Shown here in pieces: positions 15,707 through 58,532 of a stretch of 64,000 nucleotides of DNA. The notes beneath the pieces were generated by a model. The model made no database searches. It had not been told where the DNA came from and worked only from the letters and a program-made list of their open reading frames with translations. Numbering within the stretch: position 1 is the first letter of the stretch; every line of letters begins with the position of its first letter. The position numbers were made by a program, and so were the translations under genes. The stretch comes from Squalus acanthias (Eukaryota). The stretch lies in assembly GCA_030390025.1 (NCBI GenBank), contig CM059432.1, positions 11,346,001-11,410,000 of the forward strand, read 5' to 3'.

Positions 15707-15896
15707 AAATTTATATATTGTTACTGATACCCTCCATATCATTTATAAATGGAAAAAACAAGAAGGCTCATCAGTGCTAGTAGGATTTAAATCTATATCC
15801 CGAAGATGACAGTACAGACTCACGTTTCCACCCAGCTCCTCCAAAAGGCCCATTTTGTAACCCATTGTACTAATCCGTGTAGTAGCGTTTGTTCGA

Positions 15897-20334: not shown

Positions 20335-20732
20335 AGAAAGGAAGAACTTGCATTTATATAACATCTTTCACATCCTCAAGATGTCCTAAAGCACTTTACA
20401 GGAAATTAGTCCTTTTTTTTGAAGGGTAGTCATTGTTGTTTTATAGGTAAATGTGACAGCCAATTTTCACACAGCAGGGTGCCACAGACAGCAATAAAAT
20501 GAATGACACGTTAATCTGATTTTGGTGGTGAGGGATAAATGTTGGCCAGGAAACCAAGCAAACTCCACCACTCCTCTTCGAGTAGTGCTTTGGGATCTTT
20601 TACATTCATCTGAGCAGAAGAATGGGATCATCTGAAAGATAGCAGCTCTGATAATGCAGTTTTCCCTCAGTACTTTACTGAAGTGTCAGTCTAGATTATG
20701 TGCTCAAGTCGTGGAGTAGGGCTTGAACCCAT
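20335..20732 (-). mobile_element. Degraded SacSINE1-like SINE
   Basis: Tail GAACTTGCATTTATATA through head CTAGATTATGTGCTCAAGTC..GGCTTGAACCC; matches the reverse complement of 47667-48128. Confidence 0.75.
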
Positions 20733-20787
20733 CTTGTGGCGTGCCCCATTAGACTTGTTAGTGCATGTTTAGGTTTTAAAAACATTT

Positions 20788-21460
20788 GCCCACGAAGTTG
20801 CTGGAAATACGAGCTGATAACGGTGGGGTGAGTGCAACAGGTCATCTGGGACCTTGGTGAACAATGGGACCAACAGTGTATCTCCTCAACCAATGCGATT
20901 AAAGGATTGAGAAATAAACTGAGGATGGACTGAGAAGGAGGGTAAATTAGAGTGGGTGAATTCAAAGTCAAGTCAGGTACAGAAAGAGAGGGAAAGAAAG
21001 ATTGGACTTCGACAGAGAGAAAAAAGAGACAAAGGAAAAGTAAGATTTTTTTTTAATTGACATTTTTTTAAATCTCCAACAACAATTCACGGAACCTGAA
21101 GGGATAAGACTCTACATTTTTAACTGTTCACTTTCTGGGGAAGAGATTGGCAGTCATTAACAATTATCATATCATTAAAAGGATACTTGTGCTGTTAATT
21201 AAAAGACTTGACTTTCTCTGGTGAGTTTAATGGCCAATTAATGTGCAAATGCAGCAACTTCATGAAAATTACAGGGAGGTTGAGGGCGAGATGCTGTTTT
21301 TGCGAAGCTAACAAATGAGCGGCGCAAATCGGCCAGCAACTTGTGGCGATTCGCAATTCACAGGGTATCGCTTCCTTGCCACAAGTTGCTGGCCGATTTT
21401 TTACATTAATAACGGCGTGCATTGTTCAGTCACTGTTATTTTTTCACAAAATTCTGGGCC
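20788..21460. mobile_element. Possible degraded MITE-like element
   Basis: Weak terminal similarity (GCCCACGAAGTTG.. vs reverse complement GGCCCAGAATTTTG..), resembling the TIR of 6028-6753. CpG-rich subterminal part. Confidence 0.3.
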
Positions 21461-21997
21461 AATGATTTTGATGAGGTCATAAGTGTGGCTGGTGTGGGAA
21501 ATGAAAAATTCACCTTGGTGTAATAGATTGAATTGAAGATGCATTGTTGGGGAAGAATAGAAGGAGCTTTACTCTGTAGGTGGCCATGTTCTGCCTGATG
21601 CTGCCTGAAGTGGAGAGATGTCCTTCACCTTAGCAAGCACAAAAATGCAAACACATGTCTAAAAATGCCTACATGTCATCTTTAATAAATACTTAGAAAT
21701 AATGTATTTTCAGGACCTTTTAACTTATAGTATTAATTAGTAACATGAGTAAAATGTCATGGAATTTAGAGCTGGAATCCGTTGAGACACTGGTAGTAGA
21801 TGCTTCTGTGAAACTTTAAATAAGATGCCAAGAAGTATATTGGCAGAATATAGATTTTAAAGTTATTAAATTTCAGTAAGTGTCCCCTGTGCAGTAAGTA
21901 ACTGTCAGGTCATCGTTCTTTAATATTTCCCAGATTGTTAAAAGTTATCTGAAATGTATTACTTCTAATATCTGCTCCAGAGTGATTAGCTTTTCAG

Positions 21998-22125
21998 TTT
22001 CTAATGAAGGGGCTTCACCTGAAATGCTTTCCTATCTTTCCCTGTACAGATACTTACTTACTTGCTGTGTATTTCCAGGATTTACTGTTTTTATTTCAGA
22101 TTTTCAGCATTTGCAGCAGCTTTAT
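21998..22125 (+). repeat. Degraded Penelope-type terminal repeat with a decayed hammerhead motif
   Basis: CTAATGA-AGG-GGCTTCA-CCT-GAAA at 22001-22024, followed by sequence homologous to 225-312. Confidence 0.45.
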
Positions 22126-22359
22126 CTTTCTGTTGACTTTTTGGCTCCGTTAGTTCGGTTGTTAAGACTACATTGATGAGAATGGCAGACTGATTCCATT
22201 GAAAACACTGGATTCTTGATTGGAGACCTGAGCTTGAGTACCAGCCTTCACTGAGATTGATAATGTGGTTTCTCTAAGAGGCTGAACTTTGCATATTGGG
22301 CAGGTAGTTTGTGGAAGGCAAAGGTGCCTGGTGGAGGGCTGGCTGTAAGTTCAAGTCAA

Positions 22360-22660
22360 AGAAAGAAAGAACTCTCATTTATATAACGCTTTTCACTACC
22401 TCAAGAGGTCCCAAACAGTTTAACAGCCAATGAAGTACTTTTGAAGTGTAGTCACTGTTGCAATGTAGGAAAAGCGGTAGCCAAAATGCACACCGCAAGA
22501 TCCCACGAACAGCTATGTGATAATAACCAGATAATCTGTTTTACGTGGTGTTGGCTGAGGGATAAATATTGGTCAGGACACTGGGAGCACTCCTTTGCTG
22601 CTCTTCGCAATAGTGCTATAGGATCTTGTGCATTCACCTGAGAGGGCAGGCAGGGCCTCA
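22360..22660 (-). mobile_element. SacSINE1-like SINE, 3' half
   Basis: Reverse complement matches the Deu-like domain and tail of 47667-48128. Confidence 0.8.
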
Positions 22661-22679
22661 CCACTGTACCTAAGCTTCT

Positions 22680-23251
22680 GGTCCTGACTCCCCAAAGCCT
22701 TTCCACCATCTACAAGGCACAAGTAAGGAGTGTGATAGAATACTCTCCACTTGCCTGGATGAGTGCTGCTCCAACAACACTCAAGAAACTCGACACCATC
22801 CAGGACAAAACAGCCCGCTTGATTGGCACCCTATCCACCACCTTAAACATTCACTCCCTCCACCACCGGCGTACCGTGGCTGCAATGTGTACCATCTACA
22901 AGATGCACTGCAGCATCTCGCCAAGGCTTCTTTGTCAGCACCTCCCAAAACCACGACCTCTTCCACCTAGAAGGACAAGGGCAGCAGGCACATGCGAACA
23001 CCACCACCTCCAAGTTCCCCTCCAAGTCACACACCATCCTGACTTAGAAGTATATCGCCGATCCTTCATCGTTGCTGGGTCAAAATCCTGGAACTCCCTA
23101 CCTAACAGCACTGTGGGAGTACCTTCACCACACGGACTGCAGCGGTTCAAGAAGGCGGCTCACCACCACCTTCTCGAGGGCAACTAGGGATGGGCAATAA
23201 ATGCTGGCCTTGCCAGCGACGCCCAGATCCCATAAACGAATTTTAAAAAAA
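22680..23251 (+). mobile_element. LINE family B 3' fragment
   Basis: ORF 22732-23187 EYSPLAWMSAAPTTLKKLDTIQDK..HHHLLEGN; 3' UTR GGCAATAAATGCTGGCC and A tail. Confidence 0.88.
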
Positions 23252-23604
23252 GCAACTGGTGTTCAGTAACTTGAAGACCTTGAAAACTGTACAGGCGACT
23301 TTTCTAAAGATGGATTAACAAGATACTGCACAATTTACGTTATATTCCCAGCTGTAGCTGAGACTGCACAAACTGTCTGGAAAGGCAGATATAGTAAGTG
23401 AATGATGCAAGTGACAGTTAAAACTGTTTAGAGTTCAGTCATTCAGAGACTGCTTTTTAATGTTATTGACCCAAATGATGTTTTTATTTTCAGCCTTGTC
23501 AAAATGACACTATCAATCAATTCAGTCAAAGATGACTGTAAAGTAACAGATATCAACCAACACATTTATCTCGGTAGCATCCCACTGCAATATTTAAATG
23601 ACAT

Positions 23605-23875
23605 AGAAAGAAGGGGCTTGCATTTATGCAGCATTCTCCTGTCTCGGGTGTCCAAAAGCCCTTTACCTACAATGAATTATTTTTCAGTCACTTGCTCTGT
23701 GGGCGAATGTAGCAGCCATTTTGAGCACAGCAAAATGTCTCAAACCGTAGTGAGGTGAATGAACATTTAATCTGTTTTTGATACTGTTAGTTGAAGCAAG
23801 ATCTTGGTGAGGACATTGGGAGATCCCCTTGCTCTTCAACTAGTGTCATGTGATCTTCAACATCCACCTGAAGCA
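23605..23875 (-). mobile_element. Highly degraded SacSINE1-like fragment
   Basis: CTTGCATTTAT..GCAGCCATTTTGAGCACAGCAA..CATCCACCTGA resembles the other minus-strand copies. Confidence 0.55.
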
Positions 23876-26584
23876 TAATGCATCAGCTATTGAGTTTTAT
23901 CCATGTTCCTAAAAACAATTGGTAGCAATCTGATGTGGAATATTTAAAACTACAGAGAACTCTTTGATAAAGCAAGAGTCTTTAATACAGTATTGAACCG
24001 CAGAACGGCTATATACTCACTAAAGGATAGTGTGTTTAAGTAAATTCAGATACAATTTTGAAGTCTGTATGTATTCAGTGAGAAGCTAAATGTTTTTGAG
24101 TATGTCCTCATCTATCACCAGGACATTCTAAACTGAAGTGCTGAGCATTTTACAACCCAGGACACAGGCTTCCAGCTATTCGATATTGATTGGCTCATGT
24201 TATGCTTGACACCACTGTCTTTTTTGAGACGTTCAGTGACTCCATAAATCCCCAAAAGTTGGTAGTACTATCCATGCGTAATGCCTCTGGGTCCTCTTTT
24301 CGTTACATTTTGTTGAGGGGGAAATAAGACTCCCGTTTGAGAATGTGCCTATTATTACACATATTTGAAACGGATACTGAAATAACAACCCTGTATTTTA
24401 TACTGAAGGAATTTGTTTTATTTTAAGTACTGTTTCATTTGAATGAACATAGGTTGGTGCTTTTGGCACCCTTTGTAGTTTTGTTGGCTCTGCCAATTGC
24501 AAAGATTATTTGCTAAACAATCTCTAAGAACAGATCAAATATTTATATTTCAACTCATCATTAAGGTTTGATTGAAATGCCTTCTGGATGATGCACAAAT
24601 TGGGTTAGTAGCATTCTTTTTCAACTGATTTGAAAAGGTTTGGCATTTGGTGCTCCCCACATCCACCCCCCACCACCCCCCCCCCCACTACATTTTCTCC
24701 TATTGTCTCCTGAAAGGAATGATTTTTGCTGGGCTGAAACTCCATGGGCAATGGCTATTCTCCATGTGTGTGTTTAAATTGTGTTTTAAAACATAAAAAA
24801 TGAACCCAAAAGAAACTAAAACAATACTTTGTGACTATTATGTACTCAAACTGAGATTTTATTTCATTTGAGCAATAGTCTGGTGAGGTCAGTAAATGGC
24901 ATTTTTTCTTCTGAAATCCATTTCTGTCTCACTAGTAAAAGACATGGTGTATACAGGTTGATGCACATATAGATAGCACTTCATAGCACCCCATGACCAT
25001 TCTGGAGACAATTTGTGGGTTATTCCGTTTCATCATTTTAATTACATTTGATTGAATATTTCAGTGCAGTTGATAATAAAAGTGATGGTGCAAATGGGTT
25101 TATGCCAGCATCCTTCCAATCAAGGAGAACTCCTTGGGTATTGCCTGAATCCCCAATGAAATTTAAAAGGAGTAAAAAAGAAAAAATATAATGTGGTCAA
25201 CAGTGCGACAACTCCCCATAGTCTAGTGAAACTATGTTTTATGCAGAGCTGACAGATTTCAAGATTTCATGCCTGCATAGGCTATTAGGTTATGCTTATC
25301 CTTTCGTTGCACTGCCTGGTGAAATGCTATAGATAACGGGAAATAGCTTATCTTGGATGAGTTTGAGCCGACAAATATGCCAGCCACTCAGAAAGACTAA
25401 TACAAACATGGCCTTGTGGGTGGAATGAAAATGAGCCTTGGACTGCCTTGTCACATCGGCAGCAGTCACTAACACAATTAGATTTTCATAGCATCCAGAC
25501 AGCTTGAGTATCTAATAACTGACTGTCTAGCCAATACATCAGCCTTCTGGGGCTGCACAGCTTTGCTTTGTCATTGTGTAGCAGCCAAGCCTAAATAAAG
25601 CTCAAGAAAGCCTCCCACTGCTTATCCAGTTTCAGAGTAAATAGATGTCAATATTTCTGTGTACTGTAGCTCTTGGATAATTATTTGGATTGCAGTGAAA
25701 TGTCTAATGGAACGGCTTTTTCCCATGAGTTTGAGATTAAAATTAGATAGTTAATCACCAAAGATGAAGACTAACTCGTGAATGTTCAGATCGGTTTGGG
25801 CAACCAAAATGTTCTTTGTGTGAGATGAACAGCTTGATTTCATGGCATAATTAGATTGAGGACATTGCTAAGTTATGCTGTTCCTTAAATAGAATAATTG
25901 AAGGAATAGAATCATATTTTTCATCATGTGTTGTTTACAACGATTTTGCTTTTCAGTATAAAGATATCCAAGTATAATATTTATAATGTAGACAGAGCCC
26001 TAAATACTCTTAACGACTTGTGTAACTGAGAACGAGCATTTACAACTTGTCCTGTTTCATTCCTGAGCAAGCGTATACTGGAAAAGCAAAATTTTTAGAG
26101 TGCCTAATACTGTACATTATTTGCTTCTACTGTATTCCATTTGTTTGTCTAACTGGTAAGGGTTAAGGCTGTGTCCTCAATGTAATCTGTTGGGAAAAAT
26201 ATTTTTTTAAATTGCAAGTATTGTTTCATTAGTACAGTGGTGAACAGTTTTGAGGTTAGGTTTTTTGGTTCTCCACAATCATGTGCGAGCATTATGTTCA
26301 TTAGATAAGTCCAGATGAGGCAATCTTGGCTTAGCCATCCAAATTTTTTTGAAACGCTTACATTTTTCCTCATCTATTCATCTAACTGTATCTTGAATTA
26401 ATCTAAGGTTTTTATATACCTGGAAGACCATTCCAAGTGTTCACTTTTTGCGTGAAGAATTTCTTCACAATTTCTGCTCTAAATTATTGTTTCACTCATT
26501 GCAGCCTGTGTCCAGTGTCTTGCCTTGAAGCAGTACTGCAAATTTGCCTTATCTGTGCCATTTACTACATTTTTAATTTGTCCT

Positions 26585-26915
26585 CTGGATATGGGCCGCA
26601 TTTATTGCCAGTGAAAAGGCAGCAGTAGGTCACCTTCTTGAGCGATTATTTTTACAACTGAGTGGCTTGCTAGGCCACATCATAGAGCATCTAGAGTCAA
26701 CTATGAAGTGTGGAATTGGAGTTTCATGTAGGCCTGACTGGGTAGGGATTATAGGTTCTCTTCGGTGAAAGACATTAGTGAACCAATCCGGCAGCTTTCA
26801 TGGTCATGTTTCTGCTGTCAACCCACAAATCACCAGATTTACTGAATTTAATTTCACAACTTTCCATGTTTGAACTCACTTCCCCATGGTTTCTAGTTCA
26901 ATAGCATAACCACTC
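26585..26915 (-). mobile_element. Degraded SINE family B
   Basis: CAACTGAGTGGCTTGCTAGGCC and GACATTAGTGAACCA are reverse complements of motifs in 31136-31436/35890 and 60190-60530. Confidence 0.55.
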
Positions 26916-28179
26916 ATTACTACTTTATCTTGTGTACTTCTGTAAGCTCCCCTGTTAGTTGCCTGCTTTCTCCATTCTTTTAACATAACTTAATTCTTTG
27001 AACCTAGGATCGATTTCATGATACTTCTGTCTACCATCTCTAAGGTTTGAATGTATCCTTCTATGTCCTGGTGGCCAAAACTAAACGCAGGTATTTAAGG
27101 TGCAGTCTGACCAGCTAAATATGACATCTTTAGACTTATGGTCAACTGATCTATCAATTTAGTTTAGCATTCTGCTGGCAATCCCATCACTGCTGAAGTT
27201 TTGGACAAAGGCAATTTGAGGTTTTTGGAGGTGAGGGTAGCAGAAATCAAGTTGATAGCAACAAACAAACATTTTAACAGTAGTCTTTGTAATCATCTTG
27301 ACTAGTATGGAATACACCATCATTCAAGGTCTGTTGTAAAGTTTCTAAAAATCTAATTTTCTAATTATCAGCTGAAAGACCACCTACTATTGTAATTTTT
27401 TGTTTTATTTAAGTTAACTGAAAAGCGATGTACAGGGTATGTGCACAGGTTTGGGGCATTCCAAATATGCACACGTGTTTGACTGCAAATTCCAAATCGC
27501 TGTTGAGATTAATTCCGGGGAGCCCCTGAGATTTTTGAATGCAACGGTTCTTTCCATTTTGTTTTCTTCTGCAATAACAGTTTACGGCAGTGTGTATAAT
27601 CATTTAGAACAGAAATAACAGCTGAGCATGTCATTTTTAATTTATTAAAACATTTAGTTAATGTGCTGTGCTGTAGAGTAATTGGAATCCCCATATAGCA
27701 AGTCCCAATCTTGCCCAGGTCATTGGAAGAAAGCAAGGTGACAGGTGGTGTAATTTCTTTGCCACTCCCAAGCCTAGTTTCAGCAACTTTAATACTTTAT
27801 TAAGAGATACAAGATTTAGCCTCTGCCTTATGTTATGCATGTACATCAATCATAGTAAGCAAGCATGTGATATGTCTATATACTTACAAGCAGACCTAGG
27901 ACGCCCTGAGCTTGATCTCTGGTGTCTTTAGTCCAAGCTGCCTGCCAGTTAGGATGCCCTAATGTTTATATTCAATAGTAAATAAACATTTCACCTGACA
28001 GGCCTCTGCCTTCCTGACTGTTTTCAGTGCGAAACTACAGCTGTAGCTTGACCCCTTTATTATCTGTGCTTCACAAGGTCGTGTTCCTTGCTGCCTGGCA
28101 AATCTCAGCTCCTCCCTTTCAGTATTTCTCCACCAACCCTAAACTAGCTCCTACTCTGACCTCGGCTTCCTACACTGTT

Positions 28180-28265
28180 CCAGTGAAGCTCAACGGAAGC
28201 AGGAGGAACAGCACCTCATCTTTGCAACCTTCTGGACTCCACATTGAGTTCAACAATTTCAGACC
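28180..28265 (+). mobile_element. Fragment of a second, older Penelope-like family (C-terminus of the GIY-YIG region)
   Basis: Translates with a frameshift to ..QRKQEEQHLIF / LQPSGLHIEFNNFR, resembling typical PLE ORF ends. Confidence 0.5.
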
Positions 28266-29174
28266 GCAGCTGTTGCTAATGATTCTGTGCTGTGTGAGCA
28301 ACTGTCTGCTGGGAGATGTGATTGTCTTTTCTTTACTCTTTTATCGATTTTTCTACTCCTCCTGCCCCGGTCTCCTTCTGAAGCTAATGACTTTTTGCTG
28401 GGACATGGTTCCAAGTATGCCGCTTGCCCTATGGTACCTTGCCTAAGTGACAATTTTTCATGTCTGGACTTTGACAATATTGTTGGTGTCATTTCACCGT
28501 CATAGCTGAGCAGTTGCTGTCCTTACCTGATGTCCGCGCGTGCATGAATTTCCAATGGAGTAACTGGATAGTGATCAGGATGGGACTTTCTCTAGTGCAT
28601 GGAGTGTCCCTTCTGCTGACCTGGGTGAGATCAGCTATCCTGGCATAAACCAAGAATTGCACCTGGGATTTTCCTGGTGCTCAGCTACTCAGAGCCTTAT
28701 ACAGACCGAAATAAATGAATCAGATCATTGTAGAAAGATTATTTGCATGTACCTGGAATGCAAACTGCTTCTCAACTGTATAGATTAATTGGTGTTGATG
28801 ATGACTTCACTGCAGGTAAAATAGTATGTTCCTGTTGACACAAAAAAGAATGTAACTTGATTAATCCTGGTCAGGTTGCTACTTCACTTGATCCCTTCAT
28901 TTCTTGATCATTCTAGAGAATTTTACAGTATGTTAGCAACAGGGCTATTGTTAGAATCTTCTTAAATATATTTCACATATTGCAAGGGCTTAAGTTAAAT
29001 GAATCTAATGGTATTTTCTGATCATTCCCAATTTTTATTGTCTCAGAACTATACCCATAATTATTTGCAGCTTTGAATCTATGCTCATACCCAATCCCTT
29101 AGAAGAACTTGTGATTATCCATTTTTATTATTCCCTGCTTCAGTCCATAAAGTGCTGATCTTACAATTGATTAA

Positions 29175-29322
29175 TAGATAGATTTTTGTTAACCAAAGGT
29201 ATTAAGGGATATGGGGCAAAGGTGGGTATATGGAGTTAGGTCACAGATCAGCCACGATCTCACTGAATGGCAGACCAGGCTCAAGGGTCGAAATGGCCTA
29301 CTCCTGTTCCTATGTTTCTATA
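29175..29322 (+). mobile_element. CR1 3' tail fragment
   Basis: AAGGGATATGGGG..GATCAGCCACGATCT..GGCCTACTCCTGTTCCTATG. Confidence 0.7.
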
Positions 29323-30719
29323 TATAATGAAAATATTTGCAAATTGTTACCAGTGCTTAAAACAAGCAAACAATGTTACATTTATTACTAAAATGGTAAA
29401 GGTGTGCTTTGTGTAATGTCTGATTCCAGTGACTGGGAACCCAATGTACTGTGCCACAGAGCCATGCAGCACAGGTTTACGTCCAAAGTATTGAGCAAAG
29501 AACCAGTTTTTGGTACTTAAGCTGTCTGGATGCTATGAAGATCTAATTATGTTAGTGATAAGTTGGTGTCTATGTGATAAGTTTTGTGGCAGGCTCATTT
29601 TCATTCCATTCATGCAGTCCTGTTTGTATTGAGTTCCCAGTGTCAGCTGTATTACTGTGAAGAAATGCTGAGTTGGATACCAGGTGTTTTCCCACAGGGA
29701 GGGAAGGAATTTTGAAGGAAATGCCACCTTGAGATAGTCTTGTACACCTCCTAGCAGATGATTTGAGATCAGCATTGGCATAGGCCTAAGAGCTTGTAGT
29801 TTGTGAGCTAATGAAGTTGTGCAGCACAAGGACATCCAAGCAATGGAACTGAATGAATATAGATTAAAAAGAGGCAGTCTCATTCATTAAAAAAAAATTG
29901 TCAATTTATAGTGAAGGAGTCAAAAGGAATTATCGCCTCTCCAAAGCTTTTGATCTTCCTATTACTTTCCTCTTCTTTTCTTCTGTTACAAAAAATAATC
30001 ATTCCCTGCAATTGAGGCTCTTTTTTTGGATGTGGGGAAATATAATTAAATGATTAAAATAAATTAAGTAATCAACCTGACCAGACCAATACACATTGTA
30101 TGTGCCTTTCTGTCACCTTTTCTAGTGCTGTGTCTACCAGGGCCAAGAAGGTGGAAAGTGGTGGGCTCCTGATACTGAACTGAATGGCCATGGGACTGAG
30201 GTGGCTCTCGACTCATGACAGCTGGCTCCTAGTATGGAGCCACTGCTCGTTGCGTATCTGGAAGGAGAGTCTGGGCATCCTGGTCTCGCCTGCCAGATTC
30301 CATTGCCATGGTGCTCCAATGGGGCCCTGGCACGTGCTGTTGTCTTGAGAGATGGCATCATCAAGCACTTAGACAGTAATCGCTGCCTAGGATAGTTGAA
30401 GGGAATTATCAACCACATCACACTCCAAGAATGTGTGGTTTGCAGAGTTTATAATTATTCATCAGTAGGTTTCTCTGAGTTGAACTAGAAAGTGTCTCCT
30501 TCATCCTGAGAGGATTTCAGAATTTCTTCTTTTTTCAAAAGTTTTTGAAACAAACAGGAGATTGAATTCTCAACTTTATTTCAGGCCAGTATAACAACCA
30601 CTTTGTAAATATTATGAGCTGCATCGTTTTTACCTCAGTTAGACATCACTTGAATAATAGCACCTGTTGTTTCTTTTGTTATTTTAAAATGCAAAACAAA
30701 AATTGTTTATTAAGAATGG

Positions 30720-30945
30720 ATTTCTTTATCTCTTTGGAATTCTCTACCCCAAAGGGCTGTGGATGCTGAGGCATTGAATATATTCAAGGCTGAGATTGGT
30801 AGATTTTTGGACTCATGGGGAATTGAGGGATATGGGGATCGGGCGGGAAAGTGGAGTTGAGCTCGAAGATCAGCCATGATCTTATTGAATGGTGGAGCAG
30901 GCTCGAAGGGCCGTATGGCCTATTCCTGTTCCTAATTCTTATGTC
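30720..30945 (+). mobile_element. CR1 3' tail fragment
   Basis: GATCAGCCATGATCTTATTGAATGG..CCTATTCCTGTTCCTAATTCTTATG. Confidence 0.8.
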
Positions 30946-31435
30946 ATTGGCTCGATGGCTGGTGTGATTGCAACCACCACCTGCTAGCCTTGAACACTGA
31001 ATTAGCAATGGACAGGAAGGCATGATTAAATGTGCCTTCCACTATATCCCCTAATGCCACCACAGCTTCAGTCCATGCTTCCATGGTCGCTGGCTGCCTC
31101 TTAGCTGGGGGATCTACTGCAGACCTATACGGGAATGGTAGCATAGTAGTATGTTACATGGACTAGCAATCCAGAGGCCTGGACTAATGATCCAGAGACA
31201 AGAGATCAAATCCCACCATGGCAGCTGGGAATGTAAATTCAGTTAAATAAATCTGGAATAAAAAGCTAGTATCAGTAATGGTGACCATGTAACCACTGGA
31301 TTGTTGGGGAAAGAAAACATCTAGTTCACTAACTTAGGAAAGGAAATCTGCCGTCCTTACCCAGTCTGGCCTATATATGACTCCAGACCCACAGCAATGT
31401 GGTTGACTCTTAACTGTCCTATGAAATGGCCGAGC

Positions 31436-34400
31436 AACATAAGAAAATAAGAAATAGGAGCAGGAGTTGGCCATTTGGCCCCTCGAGCCTGCTCCGCCAT
31501 TTAATGAGATCATGGCTGATCTGATCTTGGGCTCAGCTCCATTTCCCTGCCCGCTCCCCATAACCCTTCACTCCCTTATTGTTCAAAAATCTGTCTATCT
31601 CCACCTTAAATATATTCAATGACCCAGCCTCCACAGCTCTCTGGGGCAGAGAATTCCACAGATTTACGACCCTCTTGAGAGAAGAAATTCCTCCTCATCT
31701 CAGTTTTAAATGGGCGACCCCTTATTCTGAAACTATGCCCCCGAGTTCTAGATTCCCCCATGAGGGGAAACATCTTCTCTGCATCTACCTTGTCAAGCCC
31801 CCTCAGTATCTTATATGTTTCAATAAGATCACCTCTCAATCTTCTAAACTCCAATGAGTATAGGCCCAACCTGCTCAACCTTCATCTCAGGAATCAAACT
31901 CGTGAACCTTCTCTGAACTGCCTCCAATGCAAGTATATCCCTCCTTAAATAAGGAGACCAAAATTGTACGCAGTACTCCAGGTGTGGTCTCACCAATACC
32001 CTGTACAGTTGTAGCAGGACTTCCCTGCTTTTATACTCCAACCCCATTGCAATAAAGGCCAACATTCCATTTGCCTTCCTGATTACTTGCTGTACCTGCA
32101 TGCTAACTTTTTGTGTTTCATGCACCAGGACCCCCAGGTCCCTCTGTACTGCAGCATTTTGTAATCTCTCTCCATTTAAATAATAATTTGCTTTTTTATC
32201 TTTCTTACCAAAGTGGATAACTTCACACTTTCCCACATTATACTCCATCTGCCACATGTTTGCCCACTCACTTAGCCTGTCTATATACCTTTGCAGATTC
32301 TTTGTGTCCTCTTCACAACTTGTTTTCCCACCTATCTTTGTGTCATCAGCAAATTTGGCTACATTACACTCGGTCCCTTCATCCAAGTCATTAATATAGA
32401 TTGTAAGCAGTTGAGGCCCCAGCACTGATCCCTGTGGCATCCCACTAGTTACCGTTTGCCAACTGGAAAATGACCCATTTATCCTGACTCTCTGTTAGTT
32501 AGCCAATCCTCTATCCAGTCTAATATATTACCCCCAACCCCGTGAGCTCTTATCTTGTGCAGTAACCTTTTATGTGGCACCTTATCGAATGCCTTCTGGA
32601 AATCCATTTACACCACATCCACTGGTGCCCCTTTATCCACCCTGCTTGTTACATCCTCAAAGAACTCCAGCAAATTTGTCAAACATGATTTCCCTTTCAT
32701 AAAACCATGCTGACTCTGCTTGACTGTATTATGATTTTCTAAATGTCCTGCTACTGCTTCCTTAATAATGGACTCCGGCATTTTCCCAATGACAGATGTT
32801 AGGCTAACTGGTCTATAGTTTCCTGCTTTCTGTCTCCCTCCCTTCTTGAATAGGAGCATTACATTTGCGGTTTTCCAATCCGATGGGACCTCTCCAGAAT
32901 CCAGGGAATTTTGGTAGATTGCAACCAATGCATCCACTATCTCTGCAGCCACTTCTTTTAAGACCCTAGGATGCAGGCCATCAGGTCCAGGTGACTTGTC
33001 CACCTTTAGTCCCATTATTTTACCGAGTACTTTTTCTTTAGTGATAGTGATTGTTTTAAGTTCCCCCTCCTTATAGCCCCTTGATTATATATTATTGGGA
33101 TGGTTTTAGTGTCTTCTACCGTGAAGACTGATACAAAATATTTGTTCAAAGTCTCTGCCATTTCCCTGTTCCCCATTATTAATTCCCCAGTCTCATCCTC
33201 CAAGGGACCAATGTTTACTTTAGCTACTCTCTTCCTTTTTATATACCTGTAGAAGCTCTTACTATCTGTTTTTATATTTCTTGCTGGTTTACTCTCATAA
33301 TCCATCTTCTCTCTCTTTATTTTTTTAGTTGTCCTTTGCTGGTTTTTAAAAATTTCCCAATCCTCTGGCCTCCCACTAATCTTGGCAACATTGTATGCCT
33401 TTGTTTTGAATTTGATACCATCCTTTACTTCCTTAGTTAGCCACGGATGGTTCTTCCTTCTTTCTTACCCTTTAATCTATTTTCCCCAGTCCACTTTAGC
33501 CAATTCTGCCTTCGTACCTTTGTAATTGCCTTTATTTAAGATCAGGACACTGGTTTGAAACCCAACTTTCTCACCCTCCAATTGAATTTGAAATTCAACC
33601 ATGCTATGATCACTCTTTCCTAGAGGATCCTTTACTATGAGACCATTTATTAATCCTGTCTCATTACACAGTACCAGATCTAAAATAGCCTGCTCCCTGG
33701 TTGGTTCCACAACGTATTCTAGGAAACCATCCCAGATACACTATGAACTCTTCCTCGAGGCTACCTTGGCCAATTTGATTTGTCCAATCAGTATGAAGAT
33801 TAAAATCGCTCATGATTATTGCTGTACCTTTCTTACAAGCCTCCATTATTTCTTGATTTATACTCTGTCCAACAGTGTAGCTACTGTTAGGGGGCCTATA
33901 GACTACACCCACCAGTGACTTCTTTCCCTTATTATTTCTTATCTCCACCCAAACTGATTCTACATCTTGCTCTTCTGAGCCAATATCATTTCTCACTACT
34001 GCACTGATCTCATCCTTTATTAACAGAGCTATCCCACCTCCTTTTCCTTTCTGTCTATCCTTCCGAAATGTCAAATACCCCTGAATATTCAGTTCCCAGC
34101 CTTGGTCACCTTGCAACCACGTCTCTGTAATGGCTATCAGATCATACCCATTTATATCTATTTGTGTCGTCAACTCATCTATTTTGTTACGAATGCTGCG
34201 TGCATTCAGATAAAGAGCTTTTAATTTTGTCTTTTTACTATTTTTCCGTGCTTTGACCCCACTTTATGATGCACTCTTATTTTTATACATTCTGTCCCTT
34301 CCTGTCACACTCTGGTTACCATTACCCCCATCGCTACCCTGCTCTATTGCCTTCTTCTTTCTCTTTGACTTTTTTAATTCCCGCTCACCTGAACCCTCCC

Positions 34401-51403: not shown

Positions 51404-53398
51404 TGAGGGGCAATTTTAACACGACCCGCCCGGTGGAAACCTGGCGGAGAGCAGATAAAATCGACCGGAGAGCATTTAAAATCGACCGAGTTAAGGTCCT
51501 GCCTGGATCCATTCGTCTTCAATTTTAAGGCATGTTTTGTTTACTTTCCTTATGGGCCCAGGATTAGCAGGAAAGCACTTCCGGGCCCCACAACAAAAGT
51601 TTAGGCATCTTCTGCCCTGGGCTCTCCCCTTCCCTCCCGCAAAACCCTTCCAAAACCCACTCCCGTGACTTTTTTTAAATTCGTTTTTATGGGATGTGGG
51701 CGTCGCTGGCAAGGCCAGCATTTCTTGCCCATCCCTAATTGCCCTTGAGAAGGTGGCGGTGAGCCACCTTCTTGAACCGCTGCAGTCCATGTGGTGAAGG
51801 TACTCCCACAGTGACGTTAGGGAGGGAGTTCCAGGATTTTGACCCAGCGACGATGAAGGATCGGCCGATATACTTCTACGTCAGGATGGTGTGTGACTTG
51901 GAGGGGATCTTGGAGGTGGTGGTGTTCCCATGCGCCCGCTGCCCTTGTCCTTCTAGGTGGAAGAGGTCGCGGGTTTGGAAGGTGCTGCCGAAGAAGCCTT
52001 GGCAAGTTGCTGCAGTGCATCTTGCAGATGATACACATTGCAGCCACGGTGCGCCGGTGGTGGAGGGAGTGAATGTTTAAGGTGGTGGATGGGGTGCCAA
52101 TCAAGCGGGCTGCTTTGTCCTGGATGGTGTTGAGCTTCTTGAGTGTTTTTGGAGCGACACTCATCTAGGCAAGTGGAGAGTATTCCATCACACTCCTTAC
52201 TTGTGCCTTGTAGATGGTGGAAAGACTTTGGGGAGTCAGGAGGTGAGACACTCGCCGCAGAATACCTAGCCTCTGACCTGCTCTTGTTGCCACAGTATTT
52301 ATGTGGCTGGTCCAGTTAAGTTTCTGGTCAATGGTGACCCCCCAGGATGTTGATGGTGGGGGATTCGCCGATGGTAATGCCGTTGAATGTCATGGGACGG
52401 TGGTTAGACTCTCGCTTGTTGGAGATAGTCATTGCCTTGCACTTGTGTGATGCGAATGTTACCTGCCACTTATCAGCCCAAGCCTGAACATCGTCCAGGT
52501 CTTGTTGCATGCAGGTATGGACTGCTTCATTATCTGAGGAGTTGCGAATGGCACTGAACACTGCAGTCATCAGCGAACATCCCCACTTCTGACCTTATGT
52601 TGGCGGGAAGGTCATTGATGAAGCAGCTGAAGAGGGTTGGGCCTAGGACACTGCCCTGAGGAGCTCCTGCAGCGATGATCTGGGGCTGTGATGATTGACC
52701 TCCAACCACCACAACCATCTTCCTTTGTGCTACGTATGACTCCAGCCAATGGAGCCTTTGCTGTTTCCAGTGTGCTCAGCCGTTTCTTGATATCACGTGG
52801 AGTGAATCGAATTGGCTGAATACTGGCTTCTGTGATGGTGGGGACCTCAGGAGGAGGCCGATATGGATCATCCACTTGGCACTTGTCTTTTGCACTTGTG
52901 TGCTGGGCTCCACCATCATTGAGGATGGGGATATTCATGGAGCCTCTTCCTCCCGTTAGTTGTTTAATGGTCCACCACCATTCACAACTGGATGTGGCAG
53001 GACTGCAGAGCTTTGATCTGATCTGTTGATTGTGGGATCGCTTAGCCCTGTCTATAGCATGCTGCTTCCGCTTTTTAGCGTGCATGTAGTCCTGTGTTGC
53101 AGCTTCCCCAGATTGGCACCTTATTTTTAGGTACGCCTGGTGCTGCTCCTGGCAAGTTCTTCTGCACTCCTTATTGCTTGCCAGCGAGCCTCCCTTTGGT
53201 GCTGGCTGGCGGCCTCCTGCTGCCTGAACTTTTGCTCCTGCCTGCTGACCAGCTGTCGCTTCCTACCCATTTTGGCGTGCTGCTGACCAGCAGCATGCAG
53301 ATGAGTCCCAGGAGTTAAAATCGCCTGGACCTCGGGGATGGTTTTCACTTACCTCGCCCCTCTCGCCCGAATCCCACTCCAAATTAAAATCGGGGCTC
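51404..53398. mobile_element. Possible GC-rich MITE-like element split by a LINE-B insertion
   Basis: Ends GAGGGGCAATTTTAA and TTAAAATCGGGGCTC are imperfect inverted repeats. CpG-rich flanks at 51404-51669 and ~53175-53398. Confidence 0.35.
51670..53170 (-). mobile_element. LINE family B, longer degenerate copy including RT
   Basis: AGAPQGSVLGPTLFSCFINDLP..GMFADDC (52530-52718), QQDLDDVQAWADKWQVTF, and the shared C-terminus. Confidence 0.9.
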
Positions 53399-53778
53399 TG
53401 TTGTCTAAATGGGAGTCAAGTGGTTTACAGCTAAAGCCACTAAACGTGCAACACTGGATTATATATTTACAGCTGTGGCTCAGTGGGTGGCACTCTTGCC
53501 TCTGAGTCAGAAGGTTGTGGGTTCAAGTCCCTCTCCAGAGATTTGAGCACATAATCTAGGCTGACACTCCAGTCCAGTGCAGTGCTGAGGGAGTGCTGCG
53601 GTGTCAGAGGTGCCGTCTTTCGGATGAGACCTTAAACCGAGGCCCCGTCTGCTCTCTCAGGTGGACGTAAATGATCCCATGGCACTATTTCGAAGCGGAG
53701 ATGCCGGTGTTGGACTGGGGTGGACAAAATTGAGAGGTCGCACAACACCAGGTTATAGTCCAACAGTTTTATTTTAAA

Positions 53779-53816
53779 TCACAAGCTTTCGGAGTTACAA
53801 CTCCTTCGTCGGGTGA
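53779..53816 (-). ncRNA. Minimal hammerhead ribozyme motif (left Penelope arm)
   Basis: Minus strand: TCAC-CCGACGA-A-GGAGTT-GT-AACTCC-GAAA-GC-TT-GTGA (stem I, CUGANGA variant, stem II, GAAA, palindromic AAGCTT). Confidence 0.65.
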
Positions 53817-54769
53817 AGTGAGGAGATACAGAATCGTCAAAGCATATATAGATCGAGAACAATGCATGTGTAACTTACAATTGCAGACAACTGAATTCAG
53901 TCATCCTGACTGTTTAGCTGCCGAGGTGTGATAAAGTTAATCAGGTCAGCCAGGAAGGTACCACATCAAAGACATAGCAAGATGCAACTGAGACAATGAG
54001 GTGGAATCGCATGGGGTCTAACGTGTCAAAAGCTGCCGTCTGTATGTAAAACGATTAACTTTAAAATTTTTACTTTTTTACTGGGAATCACATCTGTGAA
54101 CAAGCCAACAACGACTCGAGTCCGGCTCACGTCATGTATCGTGACATAAACCCAAGATCCCGATTGAGACCGTCTTCATGAGTGCGGAACTTGGCTATCA
54201 GTTTCTGCTCGATGATTTTGCGTTGTCGTGTTTTCCTAAGGCCGCCTTGGAGAACGCTTACCCGCAGATCCGAGGCTGAATGTCCTTGACTGCTGAAGTG
54301 TTCCCCGACTGGGAGGTAACAATCCTGCCTGGCGATTGTTGCGCGGTGCTCGTTCATACGTTGTCTCAGTGTCTGCATGGTCTCGCCGATGTACCATGCC
54401 GCGGTGCATTCTTTCCTGCAACGTATGAGGTAGACAACGTTGGCCGAGTCACATGAGTATGTACCATGTACCTGGTGGGTAGTGTCCTCACGTGTGATGA
54501 TGGTATCTGTGTTGATGATCTGGCATGTCTTGCAGAGTTTGCCGTGGCAGGGTTGTGTGGTGTCGTGGTCGCTGTTATCCTGAAAGCTGGGTAATTTGCT
54601 GCGAACGATGGTACTTCTGAGGTTAGGCGGCTGTTTGAAGGCAAGTAGTGGAGGCGTGGGGATGGCCTTAGCGAGGTGTTTGTCGTCATCGATGACATGT
54701 TGAAGGCTGCGAAGAACATGGCGTAGTTTCTCCGCTCCGGGGAAGTACTGGACGACGTAGGGTACCCTG

Positions 54770-55726
54770 TTGGTTGTGTCCCGTGTTTGCCTTCTGAGGA
54801 GGTCTATGCGATTTTTCGCTGTGGCCCGTCGGAACTGTCGATCGATGAGTCGAGCGTCATATCCCGTTCTTACGAGGGCGTTTTTCAGCGTCCCCTATGG
54901 ACAAGCCCTGCGAATACACAGGATCTGCTCAGACGAGGAGGAACGCGATGGACACCTACGGACGCTGAAAAACGCCCTCGTAAGAACGGGATATGACGCT
55001 CGACTCATCGATCGACAGTTCCGACGGGCCACAGCGAAAAATCGCATAGACCTCCTCAGAAGGCAAACACGGGACACAACCAACAGGGTACCCTACGTCG
55101 TCCAGTACTTCCCCGGAGCGGAGAAACTACGCCATGTTCTTCGCAGCCTTCAACATGTCATCGATGACGACAAACACCTCGCTAAGGCCATCCCCACGCC
55201 TCCACTACTTGCCTTCAAACAGCCGCCTAACCTCAGAAGTACCATCGTTCGCAGCAAATTACCCAGCTTTCAGGATAACAGCGACCACGACACCACACAA
55301 CCCTGCCACGGCAAACTCTGCAAGACATGCCAGATCATCAACACAGATACCATCATCACACGTGAGGACACTACCCACCAGGTACATGGTACATACTCAT
55401 GTGACTCGGCCAACATTGTCTACCTCATACGTTGCAGGAAAGAATGCACCGCGGCATGGTACATCGGCGAGACCATGCAGACACTGAGACAACGTATGAA
55501 CGAGCACCGCGCAACAATCGCCAGGCAGGATTGTTACCTCCCAGTCGGGGAACACTTCAGCAGTCAAGGACATTCAGCCTCGGATCTGCGGGTAAGCGTT
55601 CTCCAAGGCGGCCTTAGGAAAACACGACAACGCAAAATCATCGAGCAGAAACTGATAGCCAAGTTCCGCACTCATGAAGACGGTCTCAATCGGGATCTTG
55701 GGTTTATGTCACGATACATGACGTGA
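54770..55726 (+). CDS. Penelope ORF remnant: post-RT region plus GIY-YIG endonuclease; element-derived part starts ~54891
   Basis: PYGQALRIHRICS..; C-x2-3-C motifs; NIVYLIRC..WYIGETMQTLRQRMNEH..EQKLI..DGLNRD. No stops. The first ~40 codons are antisense of the left arm and the start codon is TTG, so translation is doubtful. Confidence 0.8.
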   Translation: MVVSRVCLLRRSMRFFAVARRNCRSMSRASYPVLTRAFFSVPYGQALRIHRICSDEEERDGHLRTLKNALVRTGYDARLIDRQFRRATAKNRIDLLRRQTRDTTNRVPYVVQYFPGAEKLRHVLRSLQHVIDDDKHLAKAIPTPPLLAFKQPPNLRSTIVRSKLPSFQDNSDHDTTQPCHGKLCKTCQIINTDTIITREDTTHQVHGTYSCDSANIVYLIRCRKECTAAWYIGETMQTLRQRMNEHRATIARQDCYLPVGEHFSSQGHSASDLRVSVLQGGLRKTRQRKIIEQKLIAKFRTHEDGLNRDLGFMSRYMT

Positions 55727-56038
55727 TCCGGACTCGAGTCGTCGTTGGCTTGTTCACAGATGTGATTCCCAGTAAAAAAGTAAAAATTTTAAAGTTAATC
55801 ATTTTACATACAGACGGCAGCTTTTGACACGTTAGACCCCATGCGATTCCACCTCATTGTCGCAGTTGCATCTTGCTATGTCTTTGATGTGGTACCTTCC
55901 TGGCTGACCTGATTGTTTATCTGCCGAGGTGTGATAAAGTTAGTCAGGATGATTGAATTCAGTTGTCTGCAATTGTAAGTTACACATGCATTGTTTTCGA
56001 TCTATATATGCTTTGACGATTCTGTATCTCCTCACTTC

Positions 56039-56075
56039 CACCCGACGAAGGAGTTGTAACTCCGAAAGCTTGTGA
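56039..56075 (+). ncRNA. Minimal hammerhead ribozyme motif (right Penelope arm)
   Basis: CAC-CCGACGA-A-GGAGTT-GT-AACTCC-GAAA-GC-TT-GTG, followed by AATAAA at 56081-56086. Confidence 0.65.
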
Positions 56076-57017
56076 TTTAAAATAAAACTGTTGGACTATA
56101 ACCTGGTGTTGTGCGACCTCTCAACTATTTCGAAGAGCAGGGGAGTTATCCCCGGTACAACACAAGAGCAGGGGAGTTATCCCTGGTATCCTGGCCAATA
56201 TTTATCCCTCAATCAACATAACAAAAACAGATTATCTGGTCATTATCACATTGCTGTTTGTGGGAGCTTGCTGTGCGCAAATTGGCTGCCGTGTTTCCTG
56301 CATTACAACAGTGACTACACTCCCAAACTACTTCATAGGCTGTAAAGCGCTTTGAGATGTCCGGTGGTCGTGAAAGGCGCTATATAAATGCAAGTCTTTA
56401 TTTTTTTTTTAGCTGTGGTATTTAATCCGTGGCTGATATATGTCAGCAGATTTTTAAATTTGTTTCCAAAATGCAAAATAATATTCTTATAAATTACATA
56501 ACAATGTTATTCTATAAATATCAAAATTGCCTTTCAGACTTCAATAAGTGTAGTTGTGGTGCTACATTTCAATGTTATGATTGCTTTCATTTTATTGAAA
56601 CAATAATATGATACTAAGAATAATGGATGGTAGAGAATAATTAACGTAATTTAATCATAAATTCCATTATCATCAACCACAAATGCAAAGATGGAATGGT
56701 TTATGTTGCAATCTGAACCTCTTAATTAAATTATTCAGCCTTATTTCTCACTTCCAAATATTTGTAGTTCTACATATTCTGTGAGATGCCTCTGAAAGCA
56801 TTTTACAGTTTCATTAGTATTGCATTATGCTACAAAGTACTAAAGACACAACACAACGCATGATTCTCCACACAGCGAATGCTCAACTTTACCGTGTAAT
56901 ATTAATGAGCAGTAACTGGGTGCTTCTCACAGGAGGTAAATAAAAGGCCAGCCCACTCCTGGCTCCTTCGTCTATCTCTTTTGTCATGTATTCAGTGTGG
57001 CATTGACAGGAGTGTGC

Positions 57018-58532
57018 GTCAGCCATGGCTCAGAAGGTTGTGGGTTCAAGTCCCACTCCAGAGACTTGAGAACAAAAACCTAGGCTGACACTCCAGTGCA
57101 GTGCTGAGGGAGTGCTGCACTGTCGGAGGTGCCGCCTTTCGGATGAGATGTTAAACCGAGGCCCCGTCTGCTCTTTCAGGAGGACGTAAAATTACACTGG
57201 CTGGTGTCTTACCTAGCACAAAGGAAGATGGTTGTGGTGGTTGAAGGTCAATCATCACAGCCCCCGGACATCGCTGCAGGAGTTCCTCAGGGCAGTGTCC
57301 TAGGCCCAACCATCTTCAGCTGCTTCATCAATGACCTTCCCTCCAACTTAAATCGGAAATGGGGATTTTCGCTGATGACTGCACAGTGTTCAGCGCCATT
57401 CACAACTCCTCAGACAATGAAGCAGTCCATGCCCACATGCAACAAGACCTGGACGACGTTCTGGCTTGGGCTGATAAGTGGCAGATAGCATTCGCGCCAC
57501 ACAAGTACCAGGCAATGACTGTCTCCAACAAGTAGAGTCTAACCACCGCCCCTTGACATTCAACAGCATTACCATCGCCGAATCCCCCACCATCAACATC
57601 CTGGGGGGTCACCATTGACCAGAAACTTAACTGGACCAGCCATATAAATACTGTGGCAAAAGAGCAGGTCAGAGGCTTAGGGTATTCTGCACGGAGTGTC
57701 TCACCTCCTGACTCCCCAAAGCCTTTCCACCATCTACAAGGCACAAGTAAGGAGTGTGATGGAATACTCTCCACTTGCCTGGATGAGTGCAGCTCCAACA
57801 ACACTCAAGAAGCTCGGCACCATCCAGGACAAAGCAGCCCGCTTGATTGGCACCCCATCTACCACCTTAAACATTCACTCCCTGTACCGTGGCTGCAGTG
57901 TGTGTACCATCTACAAGATGCACTGCAGCAACTCGCCAAGGCTTCTAAGCCAGCACCTCCCAAACCCGCGATCTCTTCCACCTAGAAGGACAAGGGCAAC
58001 AGGTGCATGGGAACACCACCACTTCCAAGGTCCCCTCCAAGTCACACATCATCCTGACTTGGAAATATATCGCCGATCCTTCATCGTCGCTGGGTCAAAA
58101 TCTTGGCACTCCCTACCTAAAGCACTGTGGGAGTACCTTCACCCCATGGACTGCAGCGGTTCAAGAAGGCGGTTCACCACCACCTTCTCAAGGACAATTA
58201 GGGATGGACAATAAATGTTGGCTTTTCCAGCGACGCCCACATTCGATAAACAAATTAAAACAAAAAATCCCATGGCATGATTTTGAAGAAGAGCAGGAGA
58301 GTTATGCACGGTGTCCTGGCCAATATTTATCCCTCAATCAACACCACTTAAAAAAACCTAGATTATATGGTCATTATCACATTACTGTCTGTGGGAGCTT
58401 GCTGTGCGCAAATTGGCTGCCGCGTTTTGTACATTACAATAGTGGCTACGCGCCAAAAGTACTTCATTGGCTGTAAAGCGCTTTGGGATGTCCTGAGGTC
58501 ATGAAAGGCGCTATATAAATGCAAGTCTTTTT
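57018..58532 (+). mobile_element. SacSINE1-like SINE (57018-57191 + 58268-58532) split by LINE family B
   Basis: Head ends GGACGTAAAA and body resumes TCCCATGGCA; the tail is intact. Confidence 0.85.
57192..58267 (+). mobile_element. LINE family B, 5'-truncated (RT to 3' end)
   Basis: AGVPQGSVLGPTIFSCFINDLP (57204-57488), MEYSPLAWMSAAP (57696-58214), A-rich tail. Confidence 0.9.

What the first reader, a model, noticed from the sequence alone, without database searches (positions are those of the whole stretch)
53779..56075. Paired minimal hammerhead ribozymes with a variant core (CCGACGA)
Seen: both arms carry stem I, CCGACGA, a 6-bp stem II (GGAGTT/AACTCC), GAAA and palindromic AAGCTT in place of stem III. 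Established: PLE terminal repeats carry minimal hammerheads thought to cleave as dimers via palindromic stem III. The U4-to-C change is in both copies, so it was in the source RNA of a recently active element. Inference: either a tolerated core variant or cleavage is dispensable. The + strand copy lies in the host pre-mRNA sense but could be masked by pairing with the opposite arm.
Basis: partly seen in the sequence, partly recalled or inferred. Interest (0 to 1): 0.7.

Follow-up and report, generated by a model that had tools for sequence, protein, structure and literature searches.

The report
Jumping-gene ribozyme with altered core letter
A jumping gene in this genome carries the small self-cutting RNA motif known from its kind, but thousands of copies have one normally fixed letter changed and descendants likely changed it back more than once, so the variant likely cuts poorly and cutting is likely helpful but not required for spreading.

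Summary
Confirmed, with small corrections. Both arms of an ordinary inverted, 5'-truncated Penelope-like insertion carry a minimal type I hammerhead with core CCGACGA (U4C). Stem II is 5 bp with a tetraloop, and the + copy has a 1-nt insertion in stem I. The two motifs lie on opposite strands, so they cannot dimerise in one RNA. U4C is an inherited family state: 3,312 copies, about 13% of at least 25,942, also in both terminal repeats of a full-length open copy. Trees show one U-to-C origin and at least two returns to U, one founding the largest lineage (15,699 copies). Every other core base stays fixed. Short copies start at a TATA/Inr site 4 nt before stem I with a likely cap-derived G. No copy class starts sharply at the cleavage site, so uncut RNA is likely the usual template. 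Best reading (0.55): a slow ribozyme, dispensable per insertion and mildly costly over time. U4C is known from a viroid; I found no report in Penelope elements but could not read Lünse 2017. The scan already noted this variant on other DNA of this genome (e1-9851636). The host-intron claim could not be verified. Interest 0.42.

The parts
53684..53695 (+). Left target-site duplication (12 bp, 1-nt ambiguity at each end) inside a tRNA-derived SINE
   Evidence: SINE halves have other copies nearby (D3/D8/D2); SINE type recalled, not tested
53696..53729 (-). 34-nt PLE 'tail', present on this arm only; ends a few bases before the ORF start codon of full-length copies
   Evidence: one-sided 30-40 bp tail described in 10.1101/2021.04.23.441226
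53779..53816 (-). Minimal type I hammerhead, core CCGACGA (C4 at 53811), extra A, 5-bp stem II, GAAA, palindromic AGCU, predicted cleavage between 53783 and 53782, 4-bp stem I
53816..53850 (-). TATA box (53844-53850) and Inr; inferred transcription start at A53819
   Evidence: sequence; family 5' ends pile up at this A with extra G; same layout in A. vaga pLTR (PMC3846280)
54127..54894 (-). 5'-truncated ORF remnant: RT thumb end, CX4CxxC linker, GIY-YIG endonuclease
54891..55726 (+). 5'-truncated ORF remnant (about 70 nt longer than the other arm), linker zinc finger and GIY-YIG endonuclease
   Evidence: Pfam GIY-YIG E 3.6e-4, just under the curated cut-off; 97-98% to full-length L094/L088
55915..55941 (+). 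27-nt micro-inversion between 7-nt inverted repeats, specific to this arm
   Evidence: (D10)
56003..56038 (+). TATA box (56003-56009) and Inr; inferred transcription start at A56034
   Evidence: context; family evidence as for the other arm
56039..56075 (+). Minimal type I hammerhead, core CCGACGA (C4 at 56043), predicted cleavage after U56071, stem I reduced to 3 bp by a 1-nt insertion
56124..56135 (+). Right target-site duplication

Best explanation
This is the pLTR hammerhead of a Penelope-like retrotransposon in which core U4 has become C in a lineage that still made thousands of copies; the C form is likely a slow ribozyme, self-cleavage is likely not needed for each insertion, and the lineage likely regains U when CpG decay offers it. 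Shown: motif, inheritance, copy numbers, full-length C4 copies, fixed remainder of the core. Inferred from trees: one U-to-C origin and at least two returns to U. Inferred from junctions: capped RNA starts 4 nt before stem I, RT starts at the tail about 90-130 nt downstream of a hammerhead and usually copies through it uncut. Inferred from published mutagenesis, untested here: U4C lowers cleavage. At this locus both copies are likely inert, since each has no same-strand partner and would be buried in the arm duplex.
For: Inheritance: C4 843 vs U4 219, G5A 12, C7T 20 in this subfamily; 3,312 C4 copies family-wide. L094 has an open 892-aa ORF between two C4 pLTRs, and 9 of 18 scored ORF-start copies have C4. 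History: C4 clade bootstrap 100 inside U4 outgroups, with a ladder of 7 loop types (71 copies, position 4 and loop masked). The U4/G7 lineage is nested inside it (100/99, 50 of 58 eligible copies) and has 15,699 copies. U4 recurs on several crown haplotypes (four-gamete sites -39 and +40). Continued constraint: among recurrent haplotypes only N7, loop II, wobble-preserving stem II positions and H17 vary; 98.8% of 167 cells are paired, with one compensatory C-G to U-A change that arose within the C4 lineage. Uncut template: 809 copies start R-ACTT, G 86: A 14 of the 100 listed (hand count). 0 of 78 ORF-start copies begin at the cleavage site. Only 11 of 100 listed junctions near the site fall on it, against about 6.6 per neighbouring position, p 0.07. 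Literature: U4C strongly lowers activity in vitro yet permits viroid infectivity (PMC3088659); non-compensated CUGA mutants are low-activity (PMC9901934); hammerhead mutants do not affect PAc insertion in vitro (PMC11167929); Naiads spread without hammerheads.
Against: No cleavage was measured. If cleavage were irrelevant the rest of the core should drift, and it does not; the span of the C4 lineage is short (a few % divergence), so this is weak either way. Reversion is mutationally easy (CpG), few master elements are involved, and pLTR/body recombination could mimic it, so selection for U4 is not proven. 5'-OH cut RNAs may be degraded or circularised and leave no junction, and 48 of 78 ORF-start copies extend beyond one unit, which fits circles as well as tandem read-through. 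L094 has lost one linker cysteine, so open does not mean active. PAc cleavage is protein-assisted, which might rescue U4C.
Confidence: 0.55

Rival explanations
1. U4C is a fully tolerated core variant: the element protein or the dimer context restores cleavage, and cleavage (for example to make circles) remains required.
For: The rest of the core and stem pairing stay conserved through the C4 lineage; PAc hammerhead cleaves only with protein; viroid U4C stays infectious; more-than-unit copies exist for C4 (L094).
Against: Repeated returns to U4 while G5A (12) and C7T (20) never amplify; U4 and C4 copies of one subfamily differ in 5'-end pattern, so the change is not neutral; no junction peak at the cleavage site.
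Confidence: 0.2
2. Position 4 matters at the DNA level or as RNA scaffold, not for catalysis. It lies at +9 of the pLTR promoter, C creates a CpG and removes an E-box-like CACCTG, and C4 copies are then made mostly from read-through transcripts.
For: TATA at -31 and Inr directly upstream. Start-site G copies: U4 11 of 219 vs C4 6 of 843, p 9e-5. Junction within 9 nt of stem I: 12 of 32 vs 2 of 38, p 9e-4; all subfamilies 28 of 75 vs 12 of 90, p 5e-4. Penelope has an internal promoter (PMC2377424).
Against: C4 copies still start at the same A (12 of 843). The U4/G7 lineage has 4.3% R-starts (677 of 15,699), similar to my estimate of about 4% for all six-loop C4 subfamilies (11 of 100 listed), so U4 is not sufficient for a high rate. 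A TGACG half-site is not needed, since G7 lacks it. A DNA-level role does not explain stem II covariation.
Confidence: 0.13
3. C4 RNAs are catalytic cheaters. In the swapped double hammerhead one RNA's core cuts its partner, so abundant U4 relatives cut C4 RNAs in trans.
For: Stem I and the AGCU palindrome are the same in all lineages, so heterodimers are sequence-compatible; U4 copies are about 87% of the family; some insertions have arms from different subfamilies (L155, L224, L260), so different RNAs or templates meet in one insertion event.
Against: 0 of 18 arm pairs with a C4 arm join C4 to a different U4 subfamily. The double hammerhead (-15.9/-18.3 kcal/mol) is no more stable than two monomers and far less stable than an inactive stem II duplex (-26/-28.4).
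Confidence: 0.1

Closest known systems
Minimal hammerheads (min-HHR) in pLTRs of metazoan Penelope-like elements (Cervera and De la Pena 2014, PMC4209133)
   Same: Type I topology, short stem I, extra nucleotide between 9 and 10.1, G10.1-C11.1, palindromic 15-16 region, thousands of dispersed copies, pairs on opposite strands, many loop variants per genome.
   Different: Core U4C in an amplifying lineage. The paper's text names U3-A8 as its core variant; no CCGA core was found in parts 1-2 of 4 of the text or in 2 of 3 supplement files (conserved letters in the figure alignments may not be captured as text).
Natural U4C viroid hammerhead (cited in Perreault et al. 2011, PMC3088659, their ref. 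30)
   Same: Same core change; activity much lower in vitro but the replicon persists.
   Different: The viroid case is a full hammerhead with tertiary loop contacts that the authors propose offset the defect. Here the ribozyme is minimal, lacks those loops as far as the sequence shows, and sits in a DNA-encoded retroelement with thousands of copies.
PAc (Poseidon element of Anolis) hammerhead and internal RT initiation (Frangieh et al. 2024, PMC11167929)
   Same: Hammerhead near the pLTR/ORF junction, two RT start sites defining a tail, uncut RNA as main template, no ends at the cleavage site.
   Different: Here the ORF starts after the tail, about 125 nt past stem I, not at stem II; the protein has a linker zinc finger (Neptune/Nematis type); natural U4/C4 alleles exist.
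EN+ PLEs of Neptune/Nematis type with inverted 5'-truncated arms (Craig et al. 2021, 10.1101/2021.04.23.441226; Arkhipova et al. 2013, PMC3846280)
   Same: Single RT + C-terminal GIY-YIG ORF, CX2-5CxxC linker, DKG motif, pLTRs, inverted arm, one-sided tail, TATA plus TCACT Inr, short TSD.
   Different: Nothing structural. The cap-G pile-up mapping the start 4 nt before stem I was not in the passages I read.

Membership tests
PLE minimal type I hammerhead | Core CUGANGA ... GAAA ... UH | tested here: not met
   U4 is C in both window copies; all other core bases match. Filed as a variant, not a canonical member.
PLE minimal type I hammerhead | Stem II with G10.1-C11.1 and an extra nucleotide after A9 | tested here: met
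   5-bp stem, extra A; 98.9% paired, one compensatory and two wobble-preserving pairs over 19 hand-picked haplotype rows
PLE minimal type I hammerhead | Short stem I closing the motif | tested here: met
   4 bp (- arm), 3 bp (+ arm); invariant in the 19 rows except the + arm; TTAC/GTAA covariant form in 2 copies
PLE minimal type I hammerhead | Palindromic 15.1-16.1 segment allowing a dimeric stem III | tested here: met
   AGCU/AGCU, 4 bp, compatible with a nested double hammerhead, though not the minimum-energy dimer
PLE minimal type I hammerhead | Located in the pLTR of a PLE | tested here: met
   In both direct repeats of full-length L094 and L088
PLE minimal type I hammerhead | Self-cleavage as a dimer | not testable with these tools
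   No assay; only contigs, no raw reads, were available; genomic junctions show no clear peak at the site
Rfam hammerhead families | Covariance-model hit | tested here: not met
   No hammerhead hit at E<=10 in 52000-58000
EN+ Penelope-like element | Single ORF with RT and C-terminal GIY-YIG | tested here: met
   RVT_1 E 5.4e-9 in the 892-aa L094 ORF; GIY-YIG E 3.6e-4 (below cut-off) in the window fragment
EN+ Penelope-like element | pLTRs, inverted 5'-truncated arm, one-sided 30-40 bp tail | tested here: met
Neptune/Nematis clades | CX2-5CxxC zinc finger in the RT-EN linker | tested here: met
   CHGKLCKTC in the window ORF; definition
Neptune clade | RT phylogeny with reference Neptune elements | not tested
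   No named reference PLE sequences were fetched
Non-LTR retrozyme | Short non-coding tandem repeats each with a hammerhead | tested here: not met
   Copies are inverted arms or 3.1-kb coding units; definition

The most novel reading that the evidence does not exclude
Core position 4 is a naturally toggling, CpG-driven on/off switch of the PLE hammerhead whose state is recorded in copy shape. U4 RNAs cut at the 3' hammerhead, severing the RT-priming tail from the body, and so yield more short cap-started copies; C4 RNAs stay whole (or are cut only in trans by U4 relatives) and yield mostly long copies. This would be the first in vivo read-out of hammerhead activity in a Penelope element.
Probability: 0.15. 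Interest if true: 0.7.

Novelty: new variant of a known kind. Interest (0 to 1): 0.42.

Why it matters
What hammerheads do in endonuclease-bearing Penelope elements is described as unclear. This family supplies natural, nearly isogenic U4 and C4 alleles (full-length elements 98.5% identical) with thousands of insertion products each and at least two inferred reversions. That makes the question testable by simple cleavage, promoter and reverse-transcription assays. It also shows that core-based hammerhead searches miss thousands of real family members, and it maps the likely transcription start 4 nt before stem I. The locus itself is an ordinary dead insertion.

Tried and rejected
U4 copies as mere post-insertion CpG decay of C4: rejected, 219 U4 vs 12 G5A and 20 C7T. 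C4 as a private mutation or gene conversion between arms: rejected. A 6-bp stem II: rejected for the monomer; it exists only in an inactive intermolecular duplex. An intramolecular dimer between the two arms: impossible, opposite strands. A pile-up of 5' ends at the cleavage site: not found (p 0.07, and several hits are explained by TCAC microhomology). A TGACG half-site as the cause of start-site copies: not needed, since the G7 lineage lacks it and still has G 75: A 25 of 100 listed (hand count). First tree discarded: misrooted by the + arm micro-inversion; the + arm was left out. Rfam scan negative. Host gene: Pfam on 150 of 218 non-repeat reading frames gave one sub-threshold hit; RNA? contigs on 15,000-31,500 showed no GT-AG joint among the 15 listed of 178; direction unknown. 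RNA ends could not be read: all 22 runs were contigs. Lünse et al. 2017 (PMC5785218) was not held and may already list such variants; bioRxiv supplements were closed. Look-up of earlier findings by sequence was empty.

Full report
OBSERVATION. The window holds an inverted repeat of about 1.2 kb per arm (53696-56123) between 12-bp target-site duplications inside a SINE. The arms differ by about 8 substitutions, one indel and a 27-nt micro-inversion; the + arm carries the inversion. Each arm ends in a pLTR with the motif: stem I, CCGACGA, extra A, GGAGU-UGUA-ACUCC, GAAA, GC, UU, stem I. There are two matches and none is expected by chance. Folding gives a 5-bp stem II and a 4-bp (- arm) or 3-bp (+ arm) stem I. 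Rfam has no hit. The motifs are on opposite strands, so one RNA holds one ribozyme in sense, downstream of its own complement (arm duplex about -314 kcal/mol).

THE ELEMENT. Both arms are 5'-truncated pieces of a Penelope-like element (GIY-YIG remnant). Full-length relatives have an open 892-aa RT-EN ORF in a 3,114-nt unit: L094 has C4 in both pLTRs, L088 has U4, and they are 98.5% identical to each other and 97-99% to the window arms. L094 has lost one linker cysteine, so it is open but not shown active. The linker CX4CxxC places the family with Neptune/Nematis (definition; no reference tree). The inverted truncated arm and one-sided tail are standard PLE features.

C4 IS INHERITED. Exact 32-mer counts in the 3.7-Gb genome are C4 843, U4 219, G5A 12, C7T 20. 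C4-G5 is a CpG, so passive decay would give U4 and G5A about equally; U4 is 18 times commoner and must have its own sources. Family-wide, C4 has 3,312 copies of 10,243 with pyrimidine at N7, plus 15,699 U4 copies with G at N7: about 13% of at least 25,942 (exact patterns, lower bounds). Contigs of coded organisms A and B hold both letters at this position; loose ends in C and D show the U form. 58 of 59 head-to-head arm pairs agree at position 4.

HISTORY. With position 4 and loop II masked, 71 copies form a ladder: U4 outgroups, then a C4 clade (bootstrap 100) through loops CAGCAG, CAACAG, CAGTAA, TAGTAA(G), TTGTAA and TTTTAA, with U4 copies in the youngest crown. A body-only tree (50 of 58 eligible copies, midpoint root) nests the U4/G7 lineage inside the C4 clade (100/99). 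In the crown U4 shares minor alleles with C4 at two sites (four-gamete pattern), implying recurrent reversion or template switching. So: one gain of C and at least two returns to U (inferred; pLTR/body recombination is not excluded).

CONSTRAINT. Among haplotypes seen twice or more, variation is confined to N7, loop II, wobble-preserving stem II positions and H17; U4C is the only core change. In 19 hand-picked rows 98.8% of 167 cells pair. One pair changes on both sides (C-G to U-A, 5 rows) via a C-A intermediate inside the C4 lineage. The shuffle figure (8/500) is not a probability, since the rows are related. Stem I does not vary there; a TTAC/GTAA form occurs in 2 copies.

WHICH RNA IS COPIED. 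A TATA box lies at -31 and an Inr (TCACTT) puts +1 four nt before stem I, as in A. vaga pLTRs (PMC3846280). 5' junctions pile up there: 40 of 165 copies from loci not chosen for their junction start within 9 nt of stem I. 809 copies begin R-ACTT, G 86: A 14 of the 100 listed (hand count). In the 30 loci read, many of these G's also match the opposite arm, but G still leads (9 to 3 by eye) where it does not. Untemplated G is the accepted sign of a copied cap (PMC4859970). All 22 such TTGTAA copies read (of 23) are short and none runs into the ORF. They contain an uncut hammerhead. By contrast, 1,586 copies have junctions or indels from -3 to +8 of the cleavage site with no sharp peak: 11 of 100 on the site against about 6.6 per position, p 0.07. 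Of 78 ORF-start copies read (90 loci of 323 matches) none starts at the site, 1 starts at the cap site with G, and 48 run upstream beyond it. This matches PAc, where uncut RNA is the main substrate and hammerhead mutants insert normally in vitro. Caveat: cut RNAs could be degraded or circularised unseen.

U4 VERSUS C4. Within the TTGTAA subfamily, G-starts are 11 of 219 (U4) vs 6 of 843 (C4), p 9e-5; A-starts are 0 vs 6; junctions within 9 nt are 12 of 32 vs 2 of 38, p 9e-4. Against over-reading this: the U4/G7 lineage has 4.3% R-starts, close to my estimate of about 4% for all six-loop C4 subfamilies and below about 10% for the old U4 subfamilies. Copies are not independent, and short copies can be template-switch mosaics (L224, L229). 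The contrast suggests position 4 is not neutral but does not say whether through cleavage, promoter strength or source sampling.

MECHANISM. Most likely (0.55): U4C weakens the uridine turn and slows cleavage (PMC3088659, PMC9901934; not measured here). Insertion proceeds from uncut RNA, so C4 sources kept spreading, and a modest advantage of U4 lets CpG revertants expand. Rivals: protein-rescued full activity (0.2), promoter or scaffold role (0.13), trans cleavage by U4 relatives (0.1). At this locus the copies are likely inert. The host-sense claim could not be checked.

PRIOR ART AND WHAT I READ. PMC4209133: parts 1-2 of 4 and a search of 2 of 3 supplement files. PMC11167929: parts 1-2 of 4. 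PMC3088659: passages and section 8. 10.64898/2026.07.22.740005: part 1 of 5 and passages (supplements closed). Passages only: PMC6765202, 10.1101/2021.04.23.441226 (47), PMC3846280, PMC2377424, PMC9901934, PMC6155905, PMC3376415, PMC4859970. Lünse et al. 2017 was seen only as a reference line. Searches found U4C only in the viroid context and no report of it in a PLE or shark; the library lacks most subscription papers. Hammerhead numbering and the E-box/CRE labels are recalled. The scan had noted the same variant elsewhere in this genome (e1-9851636); my counts were made before I saw it.

VERDICT. Real; a new variant of a known kind. The locus is ordinary; the value is the natural U4/C4 allelic series for testing what PLE hammerheads do. 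Interest 0.42.

Noticed in passing
window 55915-55941 vs 53912-53938: A 27-nt micro-inversion between 7-nt inverted repeats in the + arm only; the segment therefore reads in the same direction in both arms.
   Followed up: partly
L155, L224, L260 and 14 further pairs: In 17 of 59 head-to-head insertions the arms carry different stem II loop types (13 of them short U4 pairs; 3 differ by several bases), suggesting two RNAs or template switches in one insertion event.
   Followed up: partly
L150, L152, L158, L167, L217, L227: Head-to-head pairs in which both arms start at the inferred +1 A and are joined through a single G/C pair, as if one cap-derived base links the two cDNAs.
   Followed up: partly
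L029, L053, L058, L077 and the window: In inverted pairs one arm usually ends at the first RT start site and the other carries the ~35-nt tail up to the ORF start codon, fitting two start sites used on opposite strands.
   Followed up: no
G000-wide: A U4/G7 sister lineage with longer stem II loops has 15,699 copies and supplies most full-length elements, including tandem arrays of 3,138-nt units (C2:211.21 Mb).
   Followed up: partly
29 of 78 ORF-start copies: Many near-full-length copies have 5' junctions between the hammerhead and the start codon (+21 to +119), denser than upstream; cause unknown.
   Followed up: no
window 51686-52751 and 57195-58250: A second, older inverted pair (about 90-96% complementary) of LINE-type fragments flanks the PLE insertion at a distance.
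   Followed up: no
window 2726-3000: GC-rich stretch with repeated GCGCATGCGC-like words, possibly a host promoter; not verified.
   Followed up: no
window 56133-56188: A 31-nt tandem duplication of SINE sequence just right of the TSD.
   Followed up: no
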